64,000 nt of DNA. Source: Yuukianura sp. NJ FZ-2021 (Eukaryota). Both the position numbers and the translations under genes were made by a program. Below the pieces are notes generated by a model, which was not told the DNA's origin, searched no databases, and saw nothing but the letters and a program-made list of their open reading frames with translations. Shown in pieces: positions 9,001 through 63,300 of the stretch (position 1 is the stretch's first letter; each line of letters opens with the position of its first letter). Location of the stretch: positions 4,960,001 through 5,024,000 of the forward strand of contig CM102289.1 of assembly GCA_046563655.1 (NCBI GenBank), read 5' to 3'.

Positions 9001-9662
9001 GCGGTTGGTGACCTCTGACTCGGCAGAGGGAAGCGGAAAGCGGGTTTTGTGCTGATTCATTCAAATGCGGGGGGAATTTGAAAATGAATGGCTCTTTAGT
9101 CATGTAAGATTGGAGGCAAGAGGATGCTTTGGTTTGGTGGTCTATTGAGACTTTGAGGAAGTCTCTGTTCTGAACAATGGTTTTGGAAAGTTGTTATCTG
9201 GCCCTGTTTTGTGTGGATCTGGATCATTGGTCGTTGCCCAACTCTGTTTCGCCCCAGTGGGTGACTGCACATGCGACTGAAGCTACAGGTCGACCGAGGT
9301 CACAGTCATTTCCCGTATCCCCCTTCCTTCCGCTTCTGCATAAATCCAAATCAATTGTTAGTCACACGAACATTCACCTGTCCCAGTCTTCTTAAACAGT
9401 CAAATCAAGTGGGCCAGGTGACAGGAGGTGTCAGAGAGACAAAGAGCGGGAACGCGCCTGCGCGTCGTGGTCACGGTCATGAGCATTAATTCAAATCCGA
9501 CTTTTAACCGCCAAACGGAATTTCCACTTGAATTCATAAAGTGAAATTCATGACATTTCATTTGTGGCAAGAATTAAATATACGGCTTGCCAGGCAATTT
9601 CTAAAAAGAAAAATATACTTTGCTTGAATACAAGATTCAAAAATACAAAAACAAAATTTTTC

Positions 9663-9670
9663 AAAAAAAA
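9663..9670 (-). terminator. RNA polymerase III terminator (T8) of the tRNA-Gly gene
   Basis: Run of eight T on the minus strand, 5 nt downstream of the discriminator base. Confidence 0.8.
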
Positions 9671-9675
9671 TTTCC

Positions 9676-9757
9676 TGCATTTGCCGGGATTCGAACCCGG
9701 ATCGGCTGCTGGCTCTCATTTGGAAGGCAACCATGCTGACCCTTACACCACAAATGC
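9676..9757 (-). tRNA. tRNA-Gly(TCC) with a 10-nt intron (9711-9720)
   Basis: The minus strand reads GCATTTG TG GTGT AAGGGTCA GCAT G GTTGC CTTCCA [AATGAGAGCC] A GCAGC CGAT CCGGG TTCGAAT CCCGG CAAATGC A. All four stems pair, the A/B boxes are intact, and the mature length is 72 nt. Confidence 0.93.
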
Positions 9758-12700
9758 TGTTGTTGAGGAGCAGTGATTCTTTCCACTCCAACTCCTGATC
9801 CACATTTAGTTAAATGCAGCATTTGCAGTGTAAAACTTTCTTTCTGCTCTGTTTCCCATTGTGTAAAAAATTGCATGCAAAAGCTTATCAACACTCGTAA
9901 AACTTTTAATGCTAAGAGGTTCAGACAATAGACGCCAAGTTTAATACTTATTGTATGCTCCAACGCCTTTGTGAAAGGCATTGTACTTTAGCGCCAAAAA
10001 ATTTGAAGCACAACAGAAAATCTGCAACAAAACATGAACAAAATTTCAAAAAATTACTTTCATCAATCGATAATGCTTGGATTCTTTTGAATTTTGATTC
10101 TGTGTGGACAGGATAATTGGGTAGGGACATCCACATCTATCATGTGATGAATTTCGTCCAGTTTTTGGTATCAAGGCGCATGCGCAGTAACCTGTTTGGG
10201 CACACTCCAGTGGCCCAATCAATCACGGGGGTGACAGATCATGAACCCTCGTTCTGTTGGAATTAAACGGGGGAAACTTTCTGTCCAATCATAATTACTC
10301 CGTACTGAACCCGAGTTGGAATTAATTTTGAGCTGGAGAGAAGAAAATGAAATTGCGCGCCCTTTTTGTTCCATGGATGAAATGCTCAATTACGTAGGCA
10401 ATTTGTGGCGGTGGAAGTGAAAAATGGCGGCGGTGGGCTCGTGAATGAAGTGGTGGCGTAATGGTAATCCGCTCGATCCCATAAAGATTTTTAATCAAGA
10501 TGACTCTTACGTTGGAAGCGACCAAGGGAAACCCGGGTCCCAATGGGTCGTGAGCTTTCGCGCTCTTAAATTTCCAACTTTTTGAATTTTGGCGGTCCTG
10601 GAAAAGCGGGAGAGTCAGAAGTGGTAAGCCCCGATTTTTCCTGATCATTAGATTAGGCCTGAAGCAGCAGAGTATGGAAATTTGAACACATTCCCTTGAC
10701 ACCGACCGGGCTCAAACATTAGAGTCACAGAAATCCTAGCTGTTAAGATAAGAGTCCCTCAAGGGCTCCAATGCTACGCTCTAAAAAAAAAGAGCGCGAG
10801 GGAAATTTACATTTGAAATTCAAAAAAAAATCGTTGCGACTAGAATTTTTCCTAGTCGAGGAAATTCTACTTTCTCCTCAAAGCAGAGAATTCTTTTTTC
10901 GTTTCTTCTTTCGACCAATTTCTCCGCTCGTTGCAACACAAAAACTCAAAGTTTTTTTAAAACTTATTTTTAAAAAACTTCAAAAATTGAAGGAAAGTGT
11001 AATTTGTATTTGTTAAATGTGTTGATAGTGGCACTTTGCGTGATGCGTGGGAGGTGGAGTGGCTGTAGAGTGATGGTTTGTGGTGATGATTGGGATAAAT
11101 TGGATCCGAAGGCACTTTCAGAGTGCGGGATCTCTTCATCATCTTCTTCAAATCTCCCGGGACTTCTATTATCACTCGCCACTCAATCTACCCGCTTCAC
11201 ACTTCAACATCATACATCTCCTCAATTCAAAAGATAAACTTCTTCATGCCTCATGTTCTCCCAAAACTATCTCTCTGGATATTCCCAATAAAACTTTTTA
11301 AATCTAACTGCATTTCCTGACACAAACGTGTTTTGGTTCTAAATCATTTTTGAACCATGATATCTTTTTGAATCAAGTTCAAAAAATTCTTGTCTAGTCA
11401 TTGGTCAACCAGCTTAAAAAATTAAAATCACAAAAAAGCTCTGACTCATCATAAACTCTGTTTCCATGCTCAAAAGTTAAGGTTAGTAATTTTTTTTTAT
11501 CTCGACTTTAGCTAACTTTTTGATGAACTTTGTAAGTTGCTCTGACTGCATTTTAAGTTAATTTTGGTTATCCCTTTGACTTGAACTTCATCAAATTTTC
11601 CATATGTGGCTGACACTGAATTTGAAGATGATAAAACCAAAGTGAATAAGCTTTTTCTATGAAAAAAGAATAATAACGGCGGTTTTTTTTGTCGGAAATT
11701 TCGAAAGGGATTCAAGTACTTTTCCTCGCGTGTCGTCATGAAATGGTAGCTACAATGGCGGTTTATTTTGAAATTCAAAATCCAGGTAAGTTCGTACTTG
11801 GGGAAAAACGAAAAAGACAATGGATTTGGGAAAGTATGGGGAGGAGAAAGTGCTCGTACTTTCACGAAACACACAGTTTTCTGTCCATTAAATTCTGAAC
11901 ATGCAAACAAAATGGCCGCTCTAAAAAAGTCATGAAAACAGGTCATAACGAAGCGTGACATATGCTGAATTGTGTATGGTTTCCAGTGATGTCCAAATAT
12001 TTTTTAAAAATAAAAAAAATTGGAGTTAGTACTGCGTTTTTGTACGCCAAAACTTTTTTGGACTTTGGATTTCTTAGATCTTTTGAAATGTTTGGGTTTT
12101 GTTCGAGAAGAAATTTTGAGTGACGTCAAGGGAAATTAGAGATTGTGTTAGTCACACATTTTGTTTTTACCTTGCACAAAAGCGTCCTTACCCCTGACAC
12201 AAATATTGGTCCATATGAACAAAGCTGTAAGATCAACAAAACTTTGACCTTTGACCTCTACAAATATGATTCCACCTTGTCGTCTCTCGCCTGGCTGGAG
12301 ACAATGACTGTTACATCCAGTTCCAAACTGGTTCAATCTGGACATTATTCGTAACCAATAAAATTTTTCAGCAGAATTTCATCTACTTCAGCGCAATTCT
12401 TAGATTCTAGAAAGTAGAGGTTCTAAAAATGGGTTTTAAAGGCCACATCGCACCAGGAAAAGGAATAAATTTTCGTAATAGGGACACAGGGAGCAAAAGA
12501 GCAGCAGCAAAAGGAACGATTATTTTAGACTCGAGTCCTTTAAACTTTGAAATTTTTAGTTAGTGATTGTGCCTTGTTTTATACATAGACGTGTCCAAGC
12601 GTCCAGGGAAGATGATGTCGATGGGAAATTTTTTGGTAGTCGGTGCATTTGATAGCTCCGTGAGGTCAAAGATTCCGAGTCAAAAGTTTTTGAGGTTTGT

Positions 12701-13078: not shown

Positions 13079-13243
13079 ACTAGTTTCATGTCAATAAGAG
13101 TCTCGGTTGGTGATATCTTGCAATTGAACTGAAGACTTTTTAAAATCTTTTCTGACAAAAAACTTTTTAAAAACTTGGTTTCATAAAACCCAAGTTTCTG
13201 AAACTACAATTCCTCCAAAGGACTAATTTTTTGAAAATTCAAA

Positions 13244-15035
13244 ATGAAGTTGGTCGGAGTACCGTTTTGGACTGAAAATGAAGTCAAAAATCCTGCGGCA
13301 GCTATAATTCCACCTGACGTCAGAGAACAATCTGCCCCAGTTGCCACAACGTCAGACGTCAAGGAATCCGCGTATGTCGAATTACCGTCAACGCCAGTGA
13401 TAGCACTCGGTCCATGTCAAGTAGCAGCCAAAGCATTGCATCCCATGATGACAAGGGCACCACCACACAGAAGCGTCAGCGAAGGTGTAAACAACAATGA
13501 AAACGAAATCAAGTCACTGGATCTGAGTAGTGCCATACCACGATTTCGAGCCAAATCTTACGGAACGATTCCGATCAACGGAACTTCGGGACAAACTGAT
13601 GACGAAGACGATTCGGACTATGAAGGAAGCTACGAAGGAGGATTTCCGAGTGAAGCCGGATGGAGTACTCGGATGCACCGAAGGCAGTCGATTGTAAAAC
13701 CGGAAACTTGTTGTGTCCAGTACATTGGAATTATCTTTGTGTTGTGGTATACGATCTTCTCGTCTCTGTCGGGCCTTACCGTAAAACTTCTAGAAAAAGA
13801 ATACCATCCGTACAACATTTGTTTCTGGAGATTCCTTAGCGTTGGATCAATTTCACTCATTGCCATTGCGTACACCAAACTCTGCACCGACAAAAAGTTG
13901 TGGCCACGACCTCTCGTCGAAGAGAAACACGAACATGCCAAAAATATGTTCTTACTACTGGTAAGTAGAAAGCTTAACTGAACTTTTACGGTACTTTTTA
14001 AAAAACTAGCAATCATTTCTCGCACAAAAATTCATGTAAGGTTAGGTTTTGCTGAAAGTTTTGCGAGACAAACTTTCTCTAATTTTTTTTCCCAAATTTT
14101 ATAAATAAGAATTTTAAAAATTTCAGCTCCGTGGAATCCTCGGTTGTGCTGGTCGTATTTTGTACATTTTTTCAATCACTTGCATGAACCTCTCAGATGC
14201 TATGGTGATTGCATCTTCTTCTCCAGTGTTCATGACTTTCTTTGCATACTTTCTCCTCGGAGAAAGTTGCGGCATCGTTCCTGTCGTCGTGGCTGTTATC
14301 ACACTTGTCGGAGTTGGAATTATAACGCGCCCTCCATGGCTCACTGGCGAGGGACATTATGACGCCGAAGTTCTGGTAAGAAAATACGCAGTTCGGCCTG
14401 AATTTCACACGCGTGTGGGTCGTCACGTAACAAACTTTTATCAATTGTCTGTATCTCATTTCAGCTTGGAACTGGGACTGGATTTGGAGGGATGATCCTC
14501 ACCACGCTAGTGATGATCGTGATGCGCAAGTTGCGTCACGTGGACGTGTCACTGATAACACTGTCTTTTGCATCGTGCGGTGTCCTTGCGGCCTCCGTGC
14601 TTTGTCTCAAGGATGACGTTTTCGTAGTTCCCAGCGCCAATTTTAGAGATATTTGGCTTCTTTTTGCTTCTGGAGCCACGAGCTTCCTGGGTCAAACTTT
14701 TTTGACATTGGGACTCAAGTATGAAAGCGCAGGCGTTGTGGCACTTCTCTCAAATTTTGCAGTCGTCTTCAGTTTTATTTTTGAATACATTTTCATCCAT
14801 GTCCCGCCAGACGTTTACAGGTACTACACAACAGAAGTTTTCAAAATTTTTGTGTTTTTAGTCATCTTTTGAAAAGAGAGAAATAATTAAAATTCTGAAT
14901 TTTTTAACTTTTTTCAGTATCTCTGGCGGAATCATCGTCGTTTTGTGTATCGTGGTGACAACGTTGCGAAAATGGATCGGAAACCTGCCTGTCTACAACG
15001 ACATCCGTGAACGGTTTTGGTTTCTGCTCGTATAA
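13244..15035 (+). CDS. SLC35G1-like (EamA/DMT superfamily) transporter, 479 aa
   Basis: Exons 13244-13960, 14127-14375, 14465-14820 and 14918-15035 total 1440 nt. A long hydrophilic N-terminus is followed by about ten TM segments with EamA motifs LLRGILG, LSDAMVIASSSPVFMTFFAYFLLGE, GVGIITRPPWL, GQTFLTLGLKYESAGVV and PDVYSISGG. Confidence 0.9.
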
Positions 15036-15764: not shown

Positions 15765-15897
15765 CCGTTGTTGTCACCCTACCATAAGAGGCGACCGTTG
15801 TTGTCACCCTACCATAAGAGGCGACCGTTGTTGTCACCCTACCATAAGAGGCGACCGTTGTTGTCACCCTACCATCAGAGGTGACCGTTGTTGTCAT
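15765..15897. repeat. 30-bp tandem minisatellite (ccgttgttgtcaccctaccataagaggcga) x ~4.4
   Basis: Three identical units, one variant unit and a partial unit, head to tail with no spacers. Confidence 0.95.
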
Positions 15898-47400: not shown

Positions 47401-49053
47401 AGTTCAAAAGCAAAGATTTAAAATACACAAAATTAAAAATTCGCATATTCAGAAATCATCTTTCAACTGGCCAAAATTGGCTGAAACTGGCAGAAACGAA
47501 TCATTGAAAGAGAAAGGTTGACAAAGAAAGTTTCATGTTTTCGGAATTTTGAAACGGATGAAGAAATGTTTGAAAAGACATTTGTTCATGACATGGAGTG
47601 TTGAAGTATGATCCACTTCTGGTCACTTTTGCCAAGAATTGTGTAAAAAGCTAAGATTTATTCCGTGAGGAGGTTGGCCGAAGGAGGAAGGCGACTGTTG
47701 GTAGCCAACCAGGAGCTGGTGGGGCAGGGAGTGCAGAGTGTCGCAGGGCGGAAGGCACGGTGAGGCAAGTCGACTTGAGGTTGGCCCCACAGCCCATCTC
47801 AAAGGCTGCGCACAGAGGTCCCCACCTCACGAACTTAGTCGCACTGCCCTCGCACTCAGACCCCCACTTTTTCTAAGCGGGAATTTCAAACGAAGTATTT
47901 TTTCAACTTGGGTTGCCCTCACCCTCTCCAATCTTCTGTCGTTTTTTTCTACTGCGGAGAATCTGTGCTACCCAAGTGAGTTCTTGGCCCACGGGTGAGG
48001 ATCGAGTCTTGGATCGTGGATTGCAGGTCGCACACTTTAGTCGTCTTCAACACCATCCCATAGCAGTACATTGTAAAGTCAGCTCTCGAGTCACAGGACT
48101 CACCCCTGTGTCAAGTCCTTTGACCTCTGCTTCAAGTTGACCTCAGCTACTGATCTTGACCTCACCAAGTCAAGCCCTCGCCCTGTGACCTCAACCACTC
48201 CTTTCCAAACAAAACTAACCTTGCCTAAACGTTGGAAAAAGTGGAGATTGTGGGCGCACGAGCCTAAAAGTCTGATTCATCAGAAATGACAATAGTGCAA
48301 CTTTCGTCTGAGAATTTAAAGTGTTTGGGCAATAACAAACAGCGTCAGCTAGCAGCAAACTGTGCGAATAAACAAATTTCAAAGCCGAGAACTTACTTTT
48401 GTTTTGAAGAATTGTGCTGAAGCGTCTAAAACACTTTTCACTTCCCACAACAACTTTGAGTTCTTGCTTTCACTTGAACAAGTTCAAGAAAGCTGAAAAG
48501 TTTTGAAATCTTACAACTTTCAAAAAAAGTGAACAAAATTGAAGTTCATTTTATTTCGAAAGTGCTGGAGGGGACGAGAATCTCTGAAAAAGTTGGTGGG
48601 ACAAGGTCCCACGAAGTATCCAATATTGTTAACTCTGATTCTGAAGATTCTTTGGGGCAATTGGAGAAGCCCAGGCCCCACTACGACCTCCACGCCTGGC
48701 TCAGTAGAGAAGAGAACAATAACTTGACCCACTTTGATCCCACCCAGTCCCACCACCCCTTCCCCACTCTGGGGCACAAGGGGAACCACCACCACGTCAA
48801 GACCCCAATTCCCATCAAAGCAGAAGTAATTGGTGGAGGTGGGTCTTGGTCCACGTCCAGCACCACGGCGACTCAAATCCAGCCCCACCCCAACGTTCCG
48901 CCACTTCACCATCACCCCCACCCCGCTCAGTCCCACCACCCCATCTACTCTAGTTCTGGAAACTACGCGTCTGCAGCCCAAGCGGCTGGACGCACCCAGA
49001 GTGACAAACTGGTCGTCCCACCGGGCACTGGCTGCTTGCTCCCACCGGACGTG

Positions 49054-49369
49054 ATGGCTCTCGTGGCCCCACCACCATCTTCGGGTGGTGGGTGGCGTGA
49101 ACATGCAATGATGGCCAATGGACCCACACTTACTGGACTTGGTTCCCTCACACCGAATAGCCCCAACGAGCTCCACCACCACCACGATAGCCACCTCAAC
49201 GGATCCAACGGGCTCTCTATGGTTCCAGTGACGCAGCCGCCACAACCCACCTCCTCAGCCTCCTCTGCCGCATCACCGAACTCTGCCTCCATCAAAACAG
49301 AAAATATCGAGTGTGTCGTCTGTGGAGACAAGTCAAGTGGCAAGCACTATGGACAGTTCACATGTGAAG
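49054..49369 (+). CDS. svp: svp coding exon 1 (A/B domain and first zinc finger); open frame extends upstream to 48478
   Basis: [16 protein letters not shown]...[23 protein letters not shown], donor G|GTAAAA. Confidence 0.93.
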
Positions 49370-52300
49370 GTAAAACAAATTTTTGAAAAATTTTAAAAAA
49401 TTAATCACAAACTAGAGCCTAGTGGGGTTCTTCGATTTAAACAATTTTAAACTTAAGAATTTTTCGAAATTTTGTGTTAAATTAAACCTCATTTAAAGTA
49501 AAATGCACTCAGAAAAACAGTTTGTCTCACGTTCTCACCTCCAATTTCAAAATTTCAAGTTTTATTTTGTGGTATTGCGGTCACTGTCTCCAGTGTGCAG
49601 ATGAAGATGCTGCAATTTTGACTGCGGTTGAGATTTTATGTGTGCAGAAAATCTCGTCCGTCCAGAAAGAAGCGCGTGCAAAAAATTACGTTTTGAAATT
49701 TATGGAGTCAGTGAGCCGTTACGCCAGAGATTTCTGCTGCCACTAAAACGAAAGATTTGCATTCCTCTGCTCCGCATCTCCTTCGTCTGTCGGTGATGCA
49801 TTGCTTTTGTCCAACAAAACGAGACTTCAAGTACCCCAAGGGCCCACAGAAAGGGCTTCAAAGTCAGACGAGAAAAAAAGTGCCTCACGACGTGCCTTGA
49901 GGACTTGCATGTTCTGACCATTATGATGTTCCCAACACCACAACAGTCATATCTTACGAATCAACAACTGAGAAAAGCAGCCTTAAGAAAATTCAAAAGT
50001 CAGTCGACATTTTCTCAAGGGTCCACGAAGTCTTTCGTTCCTTTAAAATAACTCTAAAAAAGTTTTAAAAATATTTTCAAAATCTCCCCCTCAATCACTT
50101 TCCCACCGGAATCAATCATTTTGTGGCTTTTGAAAACTTTCCCATCAATTTCAAAGTTTACTGGTAACGTTTTCTAAAAGACGAAAATCGAAACAAAAGG
50201 AAAACAAAAAATACAAACTGTTCGGAAGTTTTCCCCAGAGAAATTTTTGATCTTAGAGTAAATACAGTTTATAATAAAATTTCCGTATTTTTTTTCGCTT
50301 TTCAAAAGTTGTGCAAATTGTTGAAATTTCAAAATGTGGTCCAATTTGTATTGACAAAAATGAGGAGCACGTAGACAGAAAATTACAGGTCGTTGTTCTT
50401 CTGTGTTGCCTTTGTTTTTCTTTTTTTCAAATTTAACCGCCAATCCACTTGGAGGCAAATATTTGACAAGTGTAATTCCCACGTACTGGTGTCATTTTCA
50501 AGTGGATTCTAAGCACTTATTTGCTCCTCAAATATTTTTATGACCAGAGTCAACCGAGTAACATTCAGGTTCAAGTTTGCTTTTTTCATGATTCAACAAC
50601 TTTTCAAGTTTTCTTTCTTTTTACATTTGTCAACTCTTAGGTTTTACATTCACAATTTATGTAGCTGAAATTTAAAACTGTGAAATGAAAAATGTAAAAC
50701 GAGTTGACACTACTGACTCAGTTTTTCAACTGATGAGGTCAACAATAACAAAAAATATGAGCAATGTCTATGCGAATGAAGTTGGAGAAAAACAAAGGAA
50801 TTGTTCTAACACTTAGCTAAGCACTTTTTCTAATCTCTGCAACAATAAGTTTTGATGCCAGACTCGTGCTGGATTTGCACATTTGCAAATTCGTAATTTG
50901 CAATAACCGATAACAAAAATTACGCAATCTTGTTTTTGGCGCGACGCTTAAGATTTATTTATTGTTTAGTTTGCAGATTAAACAAAAGCTTTTTTCTCTT
51001 TTAAATTTCAGTTTTTTTAACTTTGAAGCTTGATTCAAGTGGCGTGAAATTGCGAATTGGATTCGCTTATTTTGGGATTGAAATCCCTCGTAGCTTAAAC
51101 TTTATGTTGGTGCAGAATTTGTGTGTAATCTTGTGATTTTCTTCACCTTTTTCTTGTTTTCATTGTGCAAGAGACCTTTGTGACGAGAGAAGAGAAAGGG
51201 AAACGCAGATGATGAATGTCGTTTTGTAACAAAAATGTGGAAATGACAATAGAAGAGTTGTTTGTTGGTTTCTGAGCAGCAAACCAATTTAAAGTTGTTT
51301 AGTGTACAGATCTATTAAAGAGACACGAGAAAATCTAAGGATTGATGTCATAGGGTAGAGGAAAAGTTACAATGGGATTCCCCCATACTCACACGAAAAA
51401 ATCCTCCCTCTACGTCGTTTATCATTTCTTTTTAAAATTTTGACGTATTATAACTATTGTCAGTTCGAAAGTATTTTTGTTGGCGTCAAAGATTCAAAAA
51501 ATTGTCAGGTGAGTACAGGAAGCTAACGTTTGTCATTGGGTAGGTCACCAGGTTTGTTAATATGTTGACCTATGCTGTCGGGTCAAAGGTCAACTAATGG
51601 TGTAGATCCAATTATTTTGTATTTGATAACGAACAGCCAAAATTAGTAGCTGGTGAAAACATTCGTAGATCGAGCTGGAACTAGCTGGTCGCTGACCTAA
51701 CTGGTCGCTAAATTAACTGGTCGCTGACCTAGCTGGTCGCTAAATCAGCTGGTCGCTGAGCTAGCTGATAGCTGACGTAGCTGAAAGCTGAGCTAGCTGA
51801 TAGCTGACCTAGATGATAGCTGGACCTAGCTGGTCGCTGACCTAGCTGCTCGCCAAATCAGCTGGTCGCTGACTTAACGCGGGTCGCACAGTTTAAAAAA
51901 TAAGCAAAGTCAACAAGAGATGATGAATGATCATGAGTGGAGTCAATTGGCATTTGATTTCCATAAAACTATTAGTCTCACACTTGGTTCTTTTGTTACC
52001 TGATCTGTCATTTTTTCACATTCTAAACAGTATCTGCTTCTGTCCAACTCTACGCTTGCCCAGCCCCATCTGACTTGCGCAGCTTGACTCCGGCCGCTCC
52101 TCCATCAAAAGTCAAAGTTGCAAACTGCAATGTATCGTTTTTTAAACTATGAACTATGCTTTGTATAACTATTGTTTCTTGTGTTTCTGACTCAAGGAGG
52201 AAATGACCCCTTGATTACTTGTTGTTCCTATTATGGACCACACAACACGACTCGCCAAATTCTTAATATCAATCTCCCTCTCCATTCCTTAGCGGGAGAA

Positions 52301-58300: not shown

Positions 58301-60365
58301 AGTTCCCACCGAGGTTTTGTTTTAGTATATTTTTTAAAAGCAGGTTCAAAATTGAATTTTTTCCAGAAATTGTAGTGAACTTGTTCAAAGTGAGGAAACG
58401 TTGATGGTTGAGCGTCCAAAAAATGAAACTTGAGCCAAAGATCATAAAGCAGAGAAGGTTCATTTGAGGGTCATAAATTTTAGGAGAACAGTATCCCACT
58501 GGTTACAGTTTTGTTGTTCGTTTTGTCTGAACATGAACTGCTGGGTGTGGAGGGAAGACTCAAAAAAAAAGTTTCAAAAAGTGAACAGAGGGAAGATTCA
58601 AAAATGGATTTGGATGAATTGTACTAAAAGGGCTCGGGGCTGGAAGCATCTGAATTAGATAATGACCTCATGTAGTTCTCACATCAGATTGTGAGATTAC
58701 GAAATGCATTAGGGAAGTACAACAAGAAAACAATGACATTCCAGGAAGATCCTGGAAGGGAGGAGCATTTGATTTAGTCATTAAGATTTTCTGGAGATAA
58801 CATTTTGTTTTAGCCGGTCTAATCTAAATGTTGGTTTGAATTTTAGCGGTACAACGTGGCCGGATTCCGCCAACTCCCGGGCCGGGTTTCCCGGGTCAAC
58901 TGGCCCTGGGCAATGGAGATGGTATGCATGGGTCAACATACCTGTCGTCCTACATTTCTCATCTGCTGAGGGCTGAGCCCTACGCCAATGCCCGCTATGG
59001 TTCCTGCATCAATGCCAATAACATTATGGGAATAGATGCCATCTGTGAATTGGCAGCGAGACTACTCTTCTCAGCCGTCGAATGGGCCAGAAATATACCA
59101 TGGTTTCCTGAACTACAAGTAAGCGCCAACTTTCAAATTTGAATTTTGTTCAACCTTTGATTTCCCGCGTAAATCCTACCTTTACTCCGAGTTATTAGCG
59201 TAACTGTAATTCTGTAAATCAGCAAGAATGAGTCAAAATCGAAGTTATCGGTTCGAATTCCAGCCCATCACTTCATTTTTACGTTTTCTTGTAACAGCTT
59301 TGGATAAGTTTAGAACAACGCTATATGATGTATTATTCGAAAACAACTGAGAATAGGCACTAATTTTTTTTGATTTTTGCAAATTCAAAAAATTTCAAAA
59401 ATTTGTTTTAAAGGCGGAGCGTTGAGGCCTTTGACGCTGTCAATCACCTTCTTGACAGTTGGGCGCTAAAAACCAAAAAACTTCAAAAACCAGTTTTTTT
59501 TTCAAAATCAACTTGTTTCCCCGCCCTAAGGAACCGTAATTAAAGAAGGTCCAAAATCCTCTTTACTAATGTTCTCCACAAAATCAATATCACGACTCCA
59601 TTGTTACTCTCCAAAATTATTTGGCGATTCAAAATTGCACCTATTACGTTCCTTGCGTCCACGAGTTCAAAGCTCCGTCTTAATCAATTAACTTAACAAT
59701 GTTCTCGCCATCATTTTTTTTTTTTGAAAAACAACGATTTTCGTACATGGGCATCACATCTCTGTTTCACTCCGCTGGTTGCCCATACTTAATGATCTTT
59801 AGCACAAGGGAAGAGGACCATTAGACCCACTTAACTCCCAATTCTTCTTTCTCAAAAGTCAAAACTTGTGTTTTTTACTTAAAAAAAAGCATATTTCCGT
59901 GTCATCTTCTCTGTTATTACGACGAATCGTCAATGGTCAATTGTTAACAAAAAATTACTGTAAGGTATTGTTTACGAGGTGTGAAAATAGTTGGAAATTG
60001 CTTGGATGCGTGTCCGGGGGTTCATTGTTACCTCAAAAAGAACGTGCAACAATTGTATTTTTTAAAGTATTATTGTCTCATGGTGTTTTCTTTTGCTCAT
60101 GCGCAGGTGACTGACCAAGTGGCGCTTCTGCGCCTCGTGTGGTCTGAGCTATTTGTACTGAATGCCGCTCAGTGTTCGATGCCTCTCCATGTCGCTCCGC
60201 TATTGGCTGCGGCGGGGTTACACGCGGGCCTGAATGTGGCTGAACGGGTAGTGGCCTTTATGGATCAAATCCGAATTTTTCAAGAGCAAGTGGAGAAACT
60301 GAAGGCTCTTCATGTCGACTCGGCGGAATACTCTTGTCTCAAAGCAATCGTTCTCTTCACTACAG
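49054..60365 (+). CDS. svp: seven-up / COUP-TF (NR2F) orphan nuclear receptor, 3'-incomplete (final LBD/AF-2 exon not found, presumably beyond the window)
   Basis: Exons 49054-49369, 54057-54206, 58847-59118 and 60107-60365 have consistent phases. [130 protein letters not shown]. The start is placed at the MALV...WR motif. Confidence 0.97.
51681..51876. repeat. 16-bp degenerate minisatellite (consensus ctagctggtcgctgac) x ~12 in svp intron 1
   Basis: Repeated agctggtcgctgacct / agctgatagctgagct units with a 16-nt period. Confidence 0.85.
54057..54206 (+). CDS. svp: svp coding exon 2 (rest of the DNA-binding domain)
   Basis: [24 protein letters not shown]...[12 protein letters not shown]. 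Confidence 0.97.
58847..59118 (+). CDS. svp: svp coding exon 3 (hinge and start of LBD)
   Basis: [15 protein letters not shown]...LLRAEPY...[18 protein letters not shown]. Confidence 0.96.
60107..60365 (+). CDS. svp: svp coding exon 4 (LBD)
   Basis: [34 protein letters not shown]...[12 protein letters not shown]. Confidence 0.96.
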
Positions 60366-63300
60366 GTTAGCACAAATTTTGAAAACTTTTGGTTTAATTT
60401 TCAAATTTTGTATGCTTGTTTTCTGTGCAATTAGTCAAAATTTTGTAATTAAATACAACTTTTCAAAAGTTACATTAGCTAGAAAGAATTGACAAGCAAT
60501 TGACTATAAAGGTGTATTTGGGCGTGGTTTAATTTTTGAAGATTTTCTAATGATTCGATGCAGAAAAAAATTCTTGGCGATTCTGTGAAAGAGCAATTAC
60601 TAACTTACTTAACCCCTTTCGACGTTTTAACACAAAAAATCATGACACGATTGTTTTGACTTTTTTATAAATGTGAAATTTTAAAAAGTTTTGTAACTTG
60701 AGAAATTGAAATTGTTGGAAGGTGTAAAAGCAAGAGTTAATTGAGCACCCATTGTCACCCAGTCACGAAACTACTAATGATGCTCCATTCATTGTCCAAA
60801 TTACTCTGTCCAACTGATCCTCTCTCTTTCTGATCAAATTTCACCTTGGAAAATCTTAGCACCTTCAAGGTCACTATTTTCATTTCTCAGAAAGACATTT
60901 ATTGCAACTTAGATTAGTAAGATCATGCTCAATTTTTACATTAGTGACACAATTCATGCGCAATTCCAAGAACAAAAATGTGCGGAAGAGTTTGACGACA
61001 TTGGCCTTGAGCCGCTTACCCCCTGCACTGGGATCTTGGGAACTGTGACAATGGATTTAAGGGATTCTGTGTGGTTGGTGAGGGTGCGATGGGGGCGGGG
61101 TGAAATGTTCTTTGGCCACATGATTAATATTCATGCAAATAGGGATGAATGGGGGTGGGGAGAATGAAGTGTTGTGTCACAGATAACTTGAATGGGGGAG
61201 GGGGATGAAATGGAGGCACAAATGTATTTTAGAACTTTTTCTAGTTTCATCCCCCTCTCCTCCTCTCTTCTCTCCCTGATTTTGGAGTGATTACAGGGAT
61301 GAAGAGGGTGAGTTTTTTGGAGACAGGAAAACAATCCAGAAGCAGAGCATATAACAGTTCCATAGTTCCAAGTGTCACAGTGTCACGTTTTAGATTTTAC
61401 CCGGGTATCGGCTTCCCACCCACAGCAACGTGTGCCAAACCCCTCCCCCACAAACTTAGCGGGAAGCTTAGAATTGCACTTTCTTTATCTCCAAAAACAA
61501 TTTTTAAAGTTCAAACCAACTTTTGCTGAAAAAAGTTTTAAAAAAGTTGCGTAGAATTTAAATTTTTAACAAGAAATTGAATCTGAGAAGTCGAATTTGC
61601 GTTTCCCTAAAGTTACGGTGGGGTTACCACCCTACTGGGGTGACACAAGGCGACTGGCATGGTGGTTATGTTGCGATAGAAATCTCACCATTGTTTCCCT
61701 CCGCTTCTTTGTGGCTTTTTATTATTGGTTTTGCGGGATAAATGTGACGCGGGACTTTTTTGAATCCATTGTTTTCCTCTTTTTTCATTTCCTGGTTCAA
61801 ACTAAGGGCTCCTCGTCCTTCGTAATACAAAACGCCAAGGGTCCGCTGCTCCAACAATTATTTTGTCCAGTTCTGCAGGGGTCACTGCCTTGCCCTTCTG
61901 TGGCCACGAAGGTGACATGCTCCCTCCTAAAAATCAAAGGACCCACATCGGCTGAGGGGAGAGAGCCCTTTGAAAGATGAAAAAATGTAATAAGGCCCTT
62001 GGACTCTGATTTTATTCAGGCTGTCAGCCTCCGATGAGGGTTTGGGATGATGATGAAGGGTGAGTCAGTGGTGCGTTCATGGGGACAGAGAGATTAGGAT
62101 GCCCAACTCTGCATTAGATTATGGGAGATGCCCAAGTCTGTTAAGCCTCCTTAAATAAATGCTTAGAGAACCCAAATCCTCTAAAATAATTAAACACTCT
62201 CCGAACTCTCTGGAGTTTTTAAAAATCCTAATTTAAAAAAATTTACTCCACTACTGCACCCGGGATTAGTTCGATACGCTTATAAGAATTTTGAGTTGAG
62301 AAAGGTTATGACCGCATCGAATTTTTAAATTGTAAAAAAACTTTTTAGGAAGCTTTTTGAATAAGTTTTAAAAAAAGCAGAACAAGGGTCATGACTTTTC
62401 CTTTTTCCAACACTTGGACAATTATGCACGGTTGCGCTTTGAAGAGATTTTGAAACGAATGTTACGCTGCACTTGAGCTGCTGATCCCTTCGAAAAGTCC
62501 CTTGCTTCCTTTTGTTAAGTAGCAAAAGCTACTTTATGTATCGACCTTGTCCGTCTGTACGTTTCTTCGTAGTGACGAAAACCCGGAAACGACTCAACGT
62601 TTTTGGAATAAGATTTCGTATTTGAAATAGGCGACTCTTGAATATTATTTACTACAGTGAGACAAGTCATTGCGGGTCAAAGGTCAAGCAAATTAGTTTG
62701 ATCCTTGGTAACGTAAAAATTGACATATACGAACGTACATCTCTTCCTGTGGAACACGTTTTGTGTGTTACAAAATTTTATGCATCTTTCGTTACTTATT
62801 TACATCCCGGCTACCACCGGTTTATTATTGTTTTAAGGGTCCATGGATTTGGTGTAACCGGACCCCTTTTCCTAACCTGTTTCTCACGCACTTTCTTCGT
62901 TTCTTCCAACTTTTCAAGGAAGTTTCTAAGTCTCTTCTCAATTAGTCATGTTTGTGAGGGGGCCCTTCAAACCTCATTTTCCTCAGTTGTAACCTAAACC
63001 TTTTTAAGAACAAGTTGAACAGTAGTTTTGAGGAAGCAGAGTTTAAACTTTATGGTTTTGTTCTACGTGTAATTACATGGAAGGGACTTCAAGGGCCTCC
63101 CCTTGTGGTTTACAAAAGTTACCAACTTAGAGTTGGAAGGCAGAGAAACAATAACTACTAATAATCCTAAATGTCACTTTTGGGATTTGGAGGGCCCTTA
63201 AATCTGGGTGCGGCAGAACAGTTTCGGGTGTGGGGAGAGTTTTTATTTAAAGCAAAACTTTTTCAATTCTGAATGTAACGCTTTATGTATAAACATAATT

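What the first reader, a model, noticed from the sequence alone, without database searches (positions are those of the whole stretch)
9676..9757. Intron-containing tRNA-Gly(TCC) in an animal genome, with a very short 10-nt intron
Seen: a complete cloverleaf with anticodon TCC, intact A/B boxes and a T8 terminator, interrupted exactly between positions 37 and 38 by AATGAGAGCC. C32 can pair with the antepenultimate intron base (G), and U33/U34 with the adjacent A/G. Known: this anticodon-intron (A-I) pair is what eukaryotic TSEN requires, and metazoan tRNA introns are largely confined to Tyr-GTA, Leu-CAA, Ile-TAT and Arg-TCT. Inference: a lineage-specific intron gain in a Gly isotype that looks spliceable rather than decayed. 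It may mark a genome with an expanded tRNA-intron repertoire, very small excised introns or an intron-dependent anticodon modification.
Basis: partly seen in the sequence, partly recalled or inferred. Interest (0 to 1): 0.8.

Follow-up and report, generated by a model that had tools for sequence, protein, structure and literature searches.

The report
Glycine tRNA gene with 10-base intron
An animal genome carries a well-formed glycine tRNA gene interrupted, at the usual tRNA-intron position, by an intron of only 10 bases, which is unusual because animal tRNA introns are normally confined to four other tRNA types, but whether it is spliced is untested.

Summary
Window 9676-9757 (- strand) is the only tRNA in the 64 kb (Rfam RF00005, 51.6 bits). 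In intron mode ARAGORN reads it as tRNA-Gly(UCC): 72 nt mature, plus a 10-nt intron exactly between positions 37 and 38. It has a perfect B box, a T8 terminator and discriminator A73.

Intronless Gly-UCC genes with almost the same exons (L045, L070) align without the 10 bases. The contig is animal, since it carries a COUP-TF/seven-up nuclear receptor.

The insert is not an assembly error. Contigs of three runs of one sample carry it, including a 9.8-kb contig of the other haplotype. A differently flanked copy in a run of another study has a related 13-nt insert at the same place. A junction without any insert is also seen.

Intron-bearing Gly-UCC genes exist elsewhere: K. lactis (PMC4090602) and five environmental genes found here.

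Most likely this is a functional, TSEN-spliced gene (about 0.65). A dead copy remains possible (about 0.2). No RNA data and no genome were available. I rate it a new member of a known kind, of moderate interest.

The parts
9676..9757 (-). tRNA-Gly(UCC) gene, 82 nt including the intron (72 nt mature)
   Evidence: Rfam RF00005 at 51.6 bits, E 3.6e-08. ARAGORN -i reads Gly(tcc) with intron (38,10).
9721..9757 (-). 5' exon, tRNA positions 1-37 (acceptor 5' strand, D arm, anticodon-stem 5' strand, C32-A37 with anticodon UCC)
   Evidence: ARAGORN drawing. Alignment A1 to intronless L045/L070.
9711..9720 (-). 10-nt intron between positions 37 and 38. Because A flanks both sides, the placement could equally be one base further 3'.
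   Evidence: intron aatgagagcc, insertion position 37-38. These are gap columns in the intronless relatives. No indel is reported here in the contigs of runs X1-X3.
9676..9710 (-). 3' exon, positions 38-73 (anticodon-stem 3' strand, 4-nt variable loop, T arm, acceptor 3' strand, discriminator A73)
9740..9750 (-). A-box-like internal promoter element (positions 8-18)
   Evidence: Read from the sequence. It matches 6 of 9 specified positions of the consensus, which is recalled and not from a call.
9687..9697 (-). B box GGTTCGAATCC (positions 52-62)
   Evidence: The exact 14-nt match 9684-9697 is the only exact match in the window. The consensus is recalled.
9663..9670 (-). Run of 8 T on the gene strand, 5 nt after the 3' end: a Pol III terminator
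   Evidence: Sequence. The terminator role rests on established knowledge of Pol III.

Best explanation
This is a functional nuclear tRNA-Gly(UCC) gene of an animal that carries a canonical-position intron of only 10 nt.

Proposed mechanism:
1. Pol III transcribes the gene from its internal A and B boxes and stops at the T8 run. This is inferred from motifs.
2. The pre-tRNA keeps the mature L-shape. The 3' part of the intron pairs with C32/U33/U34 (or U33-C36) and stacks on the anticodon stem. The last two intron bases and A38 are left as the 3-nt bulge. This is shown only as possible in silico.
3. The tRNA splicing endonuclease cuts after A37 and before A38, and RTCB-type ligase joins the exons. 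The product is a normal 72-nt tRNA-Gly(UCC). This is inferred and untested.

The intron is most likely a neutral, evolutionarily young or fast-changing passenger. Sister copies differ in its length (10 or 13 nt) and at least one junction lacks it. An element with its own function seems less likely.
For: 1. The tRNA is well formed. It scores 51.6 bits over the full model. It has all four stems, U8, A14, G18G19, U33, the T loop UUCGAAU, A73 and a 4-nt variable loop. The score lies within the range of five other intron-bearing Gly-UCC genes (50.5-56.5 bits) and just below the full-length intronless relatives (53.3-60.0 bits; a third L045 copy at 37.4 bits and contig-end fragments are left out).

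2. The insert lies exactly at 37/38 relative to intronless genes with near-identical exons (A1). This is the only position eukaryotic TSEN uses (PMC10485636, passage).

3. C32 can pair with the G three bases before the 3' splice site. The same C32:G pair opens the anticodon-intron helix in human pre-tRNA-Arg (PMC10539383, passage). Four of the 5 environmental intron-bearing Gly-UCC genes also have G there.

4. The insert is real DNA. X2 record 9, a 9848-nt contig carrying the other haplotype's flank variants, spans 9663-10200 with no indel in the gene. It has 12 differences, of which 11 are listed, all outside the gene. X1 depth over the intron (211) equals single-copy flank depth (199).

5. 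A copy with other flanks on both sides (X4 record 24, another study) keeps the 5' half. It has stem-compatible changes at positions 42 and 43. It carries an insert at the same place that is 3 nt longer and differs at two bases, but keeps the last five bases.

6. L014, an environmental gene whose exons differ from the window's at 13 of 72 positions (my count on A1), has an 11-nt intron. That intron starts with the same three bases and holds the same anticodon-complementary GGAG/GAGAG block.

7. It is not a SINE. Other copies diverge from the window right at 9663/9676 and at 9758 (loose ends).
Against: - There is no RNA evidence at all, so transcription and splicing are untested.
- Ten nt is shorter than the 11-13 nt trypanosomatid introns. 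Those are called 'among the shortest known' and close to a proposed theoretical minimum (PMC4931112, passage).
- The anticodon-intron helix is only 3 pairs in the canonical register, followed by a C-A mismatch. RNAfold prefers a shifted register.
- Those pairings would arise by chance in about 1 of 16 random inserts (my estimate).
- A junction in which the 5' half runs straight into a 3' exon is present in the same sample (X3 loose end before 9720). Intronless Gly-UCC genes therefore probably exist, and this copy could be dispensable.
- Identity of the gene between the two haplotypes is only weak evidence of constraint. About 2 differences would be expected in 82 nt at the flank rate, and none are listed.
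- The differently flanked copy has an A at position 52 that would mismatch in the T stem, unless an unlisted change compensates.
- No genome was held, so copy numbers and the splicing-enzyme genes could not be checked.
Confidence: 0.65

Rival explanations
1. It is a dead or dying gene copy. A small insertion or duplication hit the anticodon loop of one Gly-UCC gene, the copy is not spliced, and intronless paralogs supply the tRNA.
For: - An insert-free junction exists in the same sample.
- The insert varies among copies (10 or 13 nt), as unconstrained sequence would.
- The differently flanked copy has a likely T-stem mismatch.
- A review notes that short insertions in single members of eukaryotic tRNA families are usually taken as pseudogenes. 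That was said of D- and T-arm insertions (PMC4090602, section 5 passage).
- Ten nt is below the known short introns.
Against: - All stems and conserved bases are intact, and the Rfam score equals that of other Gly-UCC genes.
- The exact 37/38 position plus the C32:G pair and the 3-nt bulge are what the endonuclease needs.
- The insert's last five bases are kept in a diverged copy whose stem changes keep pairing.
- Both haplotypes show no listed change in the gene, while 8 differences lie within 19 nt just upstream.
- A similar short intron sits in a gene whose exons differ at 13 of 72 positions (L014).
Confidence: 0.22
2. It is transcribed but not spliced. The RNA acts as something other than a decoder, such as a tRNA-like regulator or a source of fragments.
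For: The Pol III signals are intact. Nothing else points this way.
Against: Nothing specific supports it. The no-intron fold has a poor anticodon stem. The architecture is that of a normal pre-tRNA.
Confidence: 0.05
3. It is a tRNA-derived SINE or retroposed copy.
For: The tRNA sequence occurs at more than one locus.
Against: - Similarity between loci stops at the gene borders (loose ends at 9663/9676 and 9758).
- There is no shared body or A-tail, and no flanking direct repeats bracket the gene.
- ARAGORN and Rfam each find only one tRNA in 64 kb.
Confidence: 0.02
4. It is an assembly or sequencing error that created the 10 extra bases.
For: None, beyond the fact that runs X1-X3 are one sample and may be the data the assembly was made from.
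Against: - Contigs from three runs carry the 10 bases without an indel. One is a 9848-nt contig of the other haplotype.
- A run from another study shows a related insert in a paralog.
Confidence: 0.02

Closest known systems
Intron-containing tRNA-Gly(UCC) genes of the yeast Kluyveromyces lactis (Yoshihisa 2014, PMC4090602, section 18, read)
   Same: Same isoacceptor, with a eukaryotic-type intron at the canonical position. It is confined to one lineage while relatives are intronless, and it is discussed as a recent gain.
   Different: It is a fungus, not an animal. There the tRNA body is proposed to derive from a transferred bacterial tRNA-Glu gene. Here the exons match ordinary intronless Gly-UCC genes. 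I did not see the K. lactis sequences or intron length.
The conserved metazoan intron set: Tyr-GUA, Ile-UAU, Leu-CAA and Arg-UCU (PMC12530127 section 6; PMC12168002 section 12)
   Same: Same position (37/38), and presumably the same machinery (TSEN plus RTCB). The C32:G anticodon-intron pair is as in human pre-tRNA-Arg-UCU, which has a 15-nt intron (PMC10539383).
   Different: The isoacceptor is different. [quoted passage not shown] The intron here is shorter, and no intron-dependent modification is known for Gly-UCC (this last point is from recall).
Trypanosomatid tRNA-Tyr introns of 11-13 nt (PMC4931112, passage read)
   Same: A very short canonical intron, near the proposed minimum for splicing.
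   Different: The tRNA and clade differ. The window's intron is one base shorter still, and splicing there has been shown experimentally, whereas here it has not.
Five environmental intron-bearing Gly(UCC) genes found here (L002, L008, L009 = L015, L012, L014)
   Same: Gly-UCC with an intron at 37/38, 11-23 nt long. Four of 5 have G three bases before the 3' splice site. L014's 11-nt intron resembles the window's.
   Different: Their organisms are unknown, and they need not be animals. Exon sequences differ: L014 matches the window at 76.8% over 95 nt.
Nematode-specific V-arm tRNAs, nev-tRNA-Gly(CCC) (PMC3333845 abstract in the listing; PMC4033280 passage)
   Same: Only for the differently flanked copy in run X4. 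ARAGORN can also read its 13 extra bases as a long variable loop in an 85-nt Gly(UCC).
   Different: The window's own copy cannot be read that way. No stem forms in the extra bases, the anticodon is different, and the COUP-TF gene here is far better conserved than I would expect for a rhabditid nematode (from recall).

Membership tests
Eukaryotic nuclear tRNA gene (Rfam RF00005; Pol III type 2 gene) | Cloverleaf sequence and structure profile above the curated threshold | tested here: met
   51.6 bits against a gathering score of 29, full model 1-71.
Eukaryotic nuclear tRNA gene (Rfam RF00005; Pol III type 2 gene) | Internal B box, A box, downstream T run, no encoded CCA | tested here: met
   The B box is exact. 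T8 lies 5 nt downstream and GGA follows A73. The A box matches 6 of 9 specified positions against a recalled consensus.
tRNA-Gly(UCC) identity | Anticodon UCC with C35 C36, discriminator A73, C2:G71, and exons like known Gly-UCC genes | tested here: met
   ARAGORN -i reads Gly(tcc). The exons align to the intronless Gly(tcc) genes L045 and L070. The identity elements are recalled, and aminoacylation is not testable here.
Canonical eukaryotic (TSEN-type) tRNA intron | Located between positions 37 and 38 | tested here: met
Canonical eukaryotic (TSEN-type) tRNA intron | Anticodon-intron base pair (position 32 with the base 3 before the 3' splice site) and a 3-nt bulge holding the 3' splice site | tested here: met
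   C32:G is possible by direct reading. The bulge (two intron bases plus A38) appears in the constrained fold, although that fold shifts the helix by one. This is in silico only.
Canonical eukaryotic (TSEN-type) tRNA intron | Excised in vivo, with the exons ligated | not testable with these tools
   No RNA run was listed. This needs tRNA-seq or RT-PCR.
Canonical eukaryotic (TSEN-type) tRNA intron | Host encodes TSEN subunits and RTCB | not testable with these tools
   No genome is held for this window.
Conserved metazoan intron-bearing tRNA families (Tyr-GUA, Ile-UAU, Leu-CAA, Arg-UCU) | Anticodon is one of these four | tested here: not met
   The anticodon is UCC. The window's gene therefore lies outside the set named in PMC12530127.
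tRNA pseudogene or tRNA-derived SINE | Broken stems or a low score, or shared non-tRNA sequence beyond the gene in many copies | tested here: not met
   The stems are intact and the score is normal. Copies diverge at the gene borders. A genome-wide copy count was not possible.

The most novel reading that the evidence does not exclude
This animal lineage is in the middle of gaining or losing tRNA introns in its Gly-UCC genes.

Closely related copies and organisms show three states at the same 37/38 site: no insert, 10 nt and 13 nt. In the 13-nt version the first six bases repeat the first six bases of that copy's 3' exon. That hints at an origin by local duplication of the 3' side of the anticodon arm.

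If the 10-nt version is spliced, two things follow:
- It would be the shortest canonical-position intron processed by a metazoan endonuclease.
- It would offer a natural series for asking how eukaryotic tRNA genes acquire introns exactly at 37/38. The review PMC4090602 states this as an open question.
Probability: 0.3. Interest if true: 0.65.

Novelty: new member of a known kind. Interest (0 to 1): 0.42.

Why it matters
Recent surveys of GtRNAdb state that animal tRNA introns sit in four tRNA types and are essentially absent from the rest (PMC12530127, PMC12168002). How a eukaryotic tRNA gene can gain an intron at exactly position 37/38 is an acknowledged open question (PMC4090602, section 18).

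A clean Gly-UCC example in an animal would be useful for three reasons:
- It has sister copies that differ in insert length and a junction without any insert.
- It would give a young case in which gain or loss can be traced.
- It would test how short an intron the metazoan endonuclease accepts.

If the gene is simply a dead copy, the finding is ordinary.

Tried and rejected
- **Whole genome.** None is held. I could therefore make no genome-wide tRNA count and no search for TSEN or RTCB.
- **RNA evidence.** No RNA holder was listed among the 4 runs found. All four are DNA contigs, so read laying could not show transcription or splicing.
- **Earlier findings of the scan.** There were none for this genome, none by sequence, and only archaeal or bacterial cases by words. 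None was used.
- **Exact 22-mer of the 5' half in metagenome contigs.** This gave 0 hits.
- **Degenerate intron pattern in metagenome contigs.** This gave 16 loci.
  - Nine (L001, L003-L007, L010, L011, L013) have no tRNA by ARAGORN. I took them as chance or coding matches.
  - L016 has no ARAGORN call and no Rfam match, so it was dropped.
  - ARAGORN -i called L008 'SeC(tca)'. Default ARAGORN calls it Gly(tcc) and Rfam gives 50.5 bits, so I kept it.
- **17-mer in prokaryote genome contigs.** This gave 59 loci. Only L045, L070 and L074 hold a tRNA-Gly. L074 is a bacterium's own gene, and the other 56 are chance matches.
- **Phylum of the host.** It is not resolved.
  - The EamA-like exons gave 3 unnamed hits, no hit and 238 unnamed hits.
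  - The look-up of their clusters could not be made because the database was switched off.
  - The Atlas pointed weakly to arthropods for one exon and to nothing useful for another.
  - The COUP-TF exon is 89% identical to many insects, which is too conserved to place it.
- **Other computations.**
  - The unconstrained MFE fold of the 82 nt is not a cloverleaf and is no better than shuffles (z = -0.99). This is uninformative for tRNAs.
  - The sigma-70 promoter and terminator scan is irrelevant to a Pol III gene.
  - The 'tRNA-Trp(CCA)' reading was rejected.
- **Local duplication as a general origin of Gly-UCC introns.** The window's intron and those of L012 and L014 show little likeness to their own 3' exons (my reading). 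The idea therefore rests on the X4 copy alone.
- **Literature.** Seven full-text searches turned up no report of an intron-bearing tRNA-Gly in an animal. GtRNAdb itself and the PDF supplement of PMC12168002 (its per-tRNA intron table) could not be consulted, so such cases may be catalogued there.

Full report
**What is there**

On the - strand of window 9676-9757 lies a complete tRNA gene.

- Rfam finds exactly one family match in the 64 kb: RF00005 at 51.6 bits (threshold 29), E 3.6e-08, covering model positions 1-71. The surplus bases fall in the anticodon loop.
- ARAGORN as run by the tool, without introns, calls it tRNA-Trp(cca). Its drawing shows an anticodon stem with only three proper pairs and a long unpaired variable region. 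That reading is an artefact.
- With introns allowed, ARAGORN gives tRNA-Gly(tcc), 72 bases, with a 10-nt intron at 37-38.

Read directly, the gene has these features:

- acceptor stem GCAUUUG/CAAAUGC
- U8, A14, G18G19
- D stem GUGU/GCAU
- anticodon stem GUUGC/GCAGC
- loop CUUCCA|intron|A
- a 4-nt variable loop
- T arm CCGGG-UUCGAAU-CCCGG
- discriminator A73 and no encoded CCA
- a run of eight T starting 5 nt downstream

The B box is exact. By my reading against a recalled consensus, the A box matches 6 of 9 specified positions.

**Is the host an animal?**

Yes. The same contig carries exons of a nuclear receptor:

- Pfam zf-C4 at 48478-49386
- Hormone_recep at 59948-60370

The ligand-binding exon is 89% identical to seven-up/COUP-TF proteins. 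All named hits among the best 120 are insects. That exon is too conserved to fix the phylum, and my other attempts failed. An EamA-type transporter gene lies at 13.2-14.9 kb. The tRNA appears to be intergenic.

**Is the insert real, and where exactly is it?**

A 17-mer of the anticodon arm found two short contigs, L045 and L070. They are binned in prokaryotic MAGs and are probably stray eukaryotic DNA, which is my inference. They hold tandem intronless tRNA-Gly(tcc) genes with nearly the same exons. In alignment A1 the window's 10 bases are pure gap columns in these genes, exactly between A37 and A38.

Public DNA contigs were laid on 9200-10200.

- Runs X1-X3 are one sample. X4 is another study with another organism code.
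- In X1 the depth over the intron (211) equals that of single-copy flank contigs (199). No indel or substitution is listed in the gene.
- X2 record 9 is a 9848-nt contig carrying the alternative haplotype's flank variants, with 8 differences within 9770-9788. It spans 9663-10200 with 12 differences. Eleven are listed, all outside the gene, and its only gap is at 9857.

The insert therefore sits on both haplotypes. X1-X3 may be the data the assembly came from, so this rules out a consensus error more than it provides independent confirmation.

**A small family with different insert states**

Loose ends show that other loci share the tRNA but diverge from the window right at its borders (9663/9676 and 9758). 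The repeated unit is therefore the gene itself, not a SINE.

One such locus is seen with both of its flanks in X4 (record 24, 434 nt). The same flanks appear in X2 and X3. Relative to the window it has:

- changes at 9704-9706, which turn the U28-G42 pair into U-A and the G27-C43 pair into G-U, so the stem is kept
- two substitutions inside the insert (9716, 9717)
- three extra bases behind 9719, giving a 13-nt insert that keeps the last five bases of the window's intron
- T at 9697, which would mismatch in the T stem unless compensated

Of that record's 11 differences, 5 are not listed.

I applied the listed changes in a script. ARAGORN then reads an 85-nt Gly(tcc) in which the first part of the insert serves as the 3' strand of the anticodon stem and the rest forms a long variable loop. 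This works because the first six inserted bases repeat the first six bases of that copy's 3' exon. For that copy, the intron reading and the long-variable-loop reading are both possible. For the window's copy, only the intron reading works.

A further loose end in X3 (before 9720) continues from the 5' half straight into a 3' exon of the second type. This is an insert-free junction in the same sample. That string ends in GATCGATC, which looks like a Hi-C ligation junction.

The shared 5' half (38 nt) is longer than the assembler's word. I therefore cannot say which flank goes with which junction in these short contigs. The 10-letter tail of X4 record 25 is equally unassignable.

**Does it look spliceable?**

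Eukaryotic endonuclease needs three things (PMC10485636 and PMC10539383, passages read):

- the mature tRNA body
- an intron at 37/38

In human pre-tRNA-Arg that pair is C32:G, three bases before the splice site.

The window has C32 and a G at that place, followed by possible U33:A and U34:G pairs and then a C-A mismatch. A fold constrained to keep the anticodon stem prefers U33:G, U34:A, C35:G and C36:G (-4.0 kcal/mol). Either way the last two intron bases and A38 bulge out. By my estimate a random 10-mer would offer the three canonical pairs about once in 16, so this is supportive but not strong.

The length is the unusual part. Trypanosomatid introns of 11-13 nt are described as among the shortest known and near a proposed theoretical minimum (PMC4931112). 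Excised inserts of 3 nt are reported only at non-canonical positions in a nucleomorph (PMC4090602).

**How unusual is a Gly intron?**

For animals it is unusual. [quoted passage not shown]

For eukaryotes at large it is not unprecedented.

- K. lactis has two intron-containing tRNA-Gly(UCC) genes, discussed as a recent gain (PMC4090602 section 18).
- My single pattern scan of metagenome contigs returned 16 loci. Five distinct genes among them are intron-bearing Gly(UCC) genes: L002, L008, L009 = L015, L012 and L014.
- Their introns are 11-23 nt and their Rfam scores are 50.5-56.5 bits.
- Four of the 5 have G three bases before the 3' splice site.
- L014 is the closest to the window, at 76.8% over 95 nt. 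Its exons differ at 13 of 72 positions by my count on A1. Its 11-nt intron begins with the same three bases and contains the same anticodon-complementary block.

This likeness may reflect common descent. It may equally be convergence forced by pairing to the anticodon. The source organisms are unknown.

**Verdict**

The most likely reading is an ordinary, working pre-tRNA gene whose intron happens to sit in an isoacceptor where animals normally have none, and which is at the lower size limit (confidence 0.65).

The main rival is a non-functional copy tolerated because intronless copies exist (0.22). That rival is supported by the insert-free junction, the variable insert and the extreme shortness. 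It is opposed by the intact structure, the exact position, the retained 3' end of the insert across diverged copies and the similar L014 gene.

Assembly error and SINE origin are effectively excluded.

Nothing here shows transcription, splicing, an expanded intron repertoire or an intron-dependent modification. Those need the genome and RNA data.

I rate it a new member of a known kind, moderately interesting. It would be more so if the 0/10/13-nt series proves to be a live case of intron gain or loss.

Noticed in passing
window 9817-9833 (+), about 60 nt upstream of the tRNA: A 17-nt stretch is 88% complementary to 9743-9759. On the + strand it repeats the first 15 bases of the tRNA at 13 of 15 positions, preceded by a copy of the tRNA's last bases. 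It may be a relic of a head-to-head duplicate, or chance; my rough estimate is p of about 0.03.
   Followed up: partly
window 48478-49386 and 59948-60370 (+): Exons of a COUP-TF/seven-up type nuclear receptor. They comprise the start of the zf-C4 DNA-binding domain after a His/Pro-rich N-terminus, and a ligand-binding exon 89% identical to insect seven-up. The gene spans at least 12 kb.
   Followed up: partly
window 13235-14872 (+): A three-exon EamA-type (drug/metabolite transporter-like) gene with short introns. Its closest relatives in public protein sets are few and unnamed: 3 hits by word search, and 72% identity for the best representative.
   Followed up: partly
window 15765-15896 and 51681-51873: Tandem repeats: a 30-nt unit x 4.4 at 98% matches, and a 16-nt unit x 12 at 76% matches.
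   Followed up: no
L045 (524 nt) and L070 (1026 nt), genome contigs: Short contigs binned in a Bacteroidetes MAG and an Archaeoglobaceae MAG consist of tandem arrays of eukaryote-like intronless tRNA-Gly(UCC) genes. The periods are about 152 and 485 nt, with A73 and no CCA. They are probably stray eukaryotic DNA in prokaryotic bins.
   Followed up: partly
window 9535-9663, in runs X1-X3: The other haplotype replaces about 122 nt just downstream of the tRNA with 107 other letters, and another contig skips 66 nt (table 5). There are 8 differences within 9770-9788. Local heterozygosity around the gene is therefore very high.
   Followed up: no
run X3, loose ends at 9700 and 9720: The loose ends begin at GATC sites and read GATCGATC at the joint, the signature of a DpnII/MboI-type proximity-ligation library. 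Some 'junctions' in that run are therefore ligation chimeras, not genomic joins.
   Followed up: no
L009 / L015 (two metagenome contigs, identical over the locus): An intron-bearing tRNA-Gly(UCC) with an 18-nt intron sits about 130 nt from an intronless tRNA-Arg(CCU) on the same strand. This is the one environmental Gly intron with A instead of G three bases before the 3' splice site.
   Followed up: no
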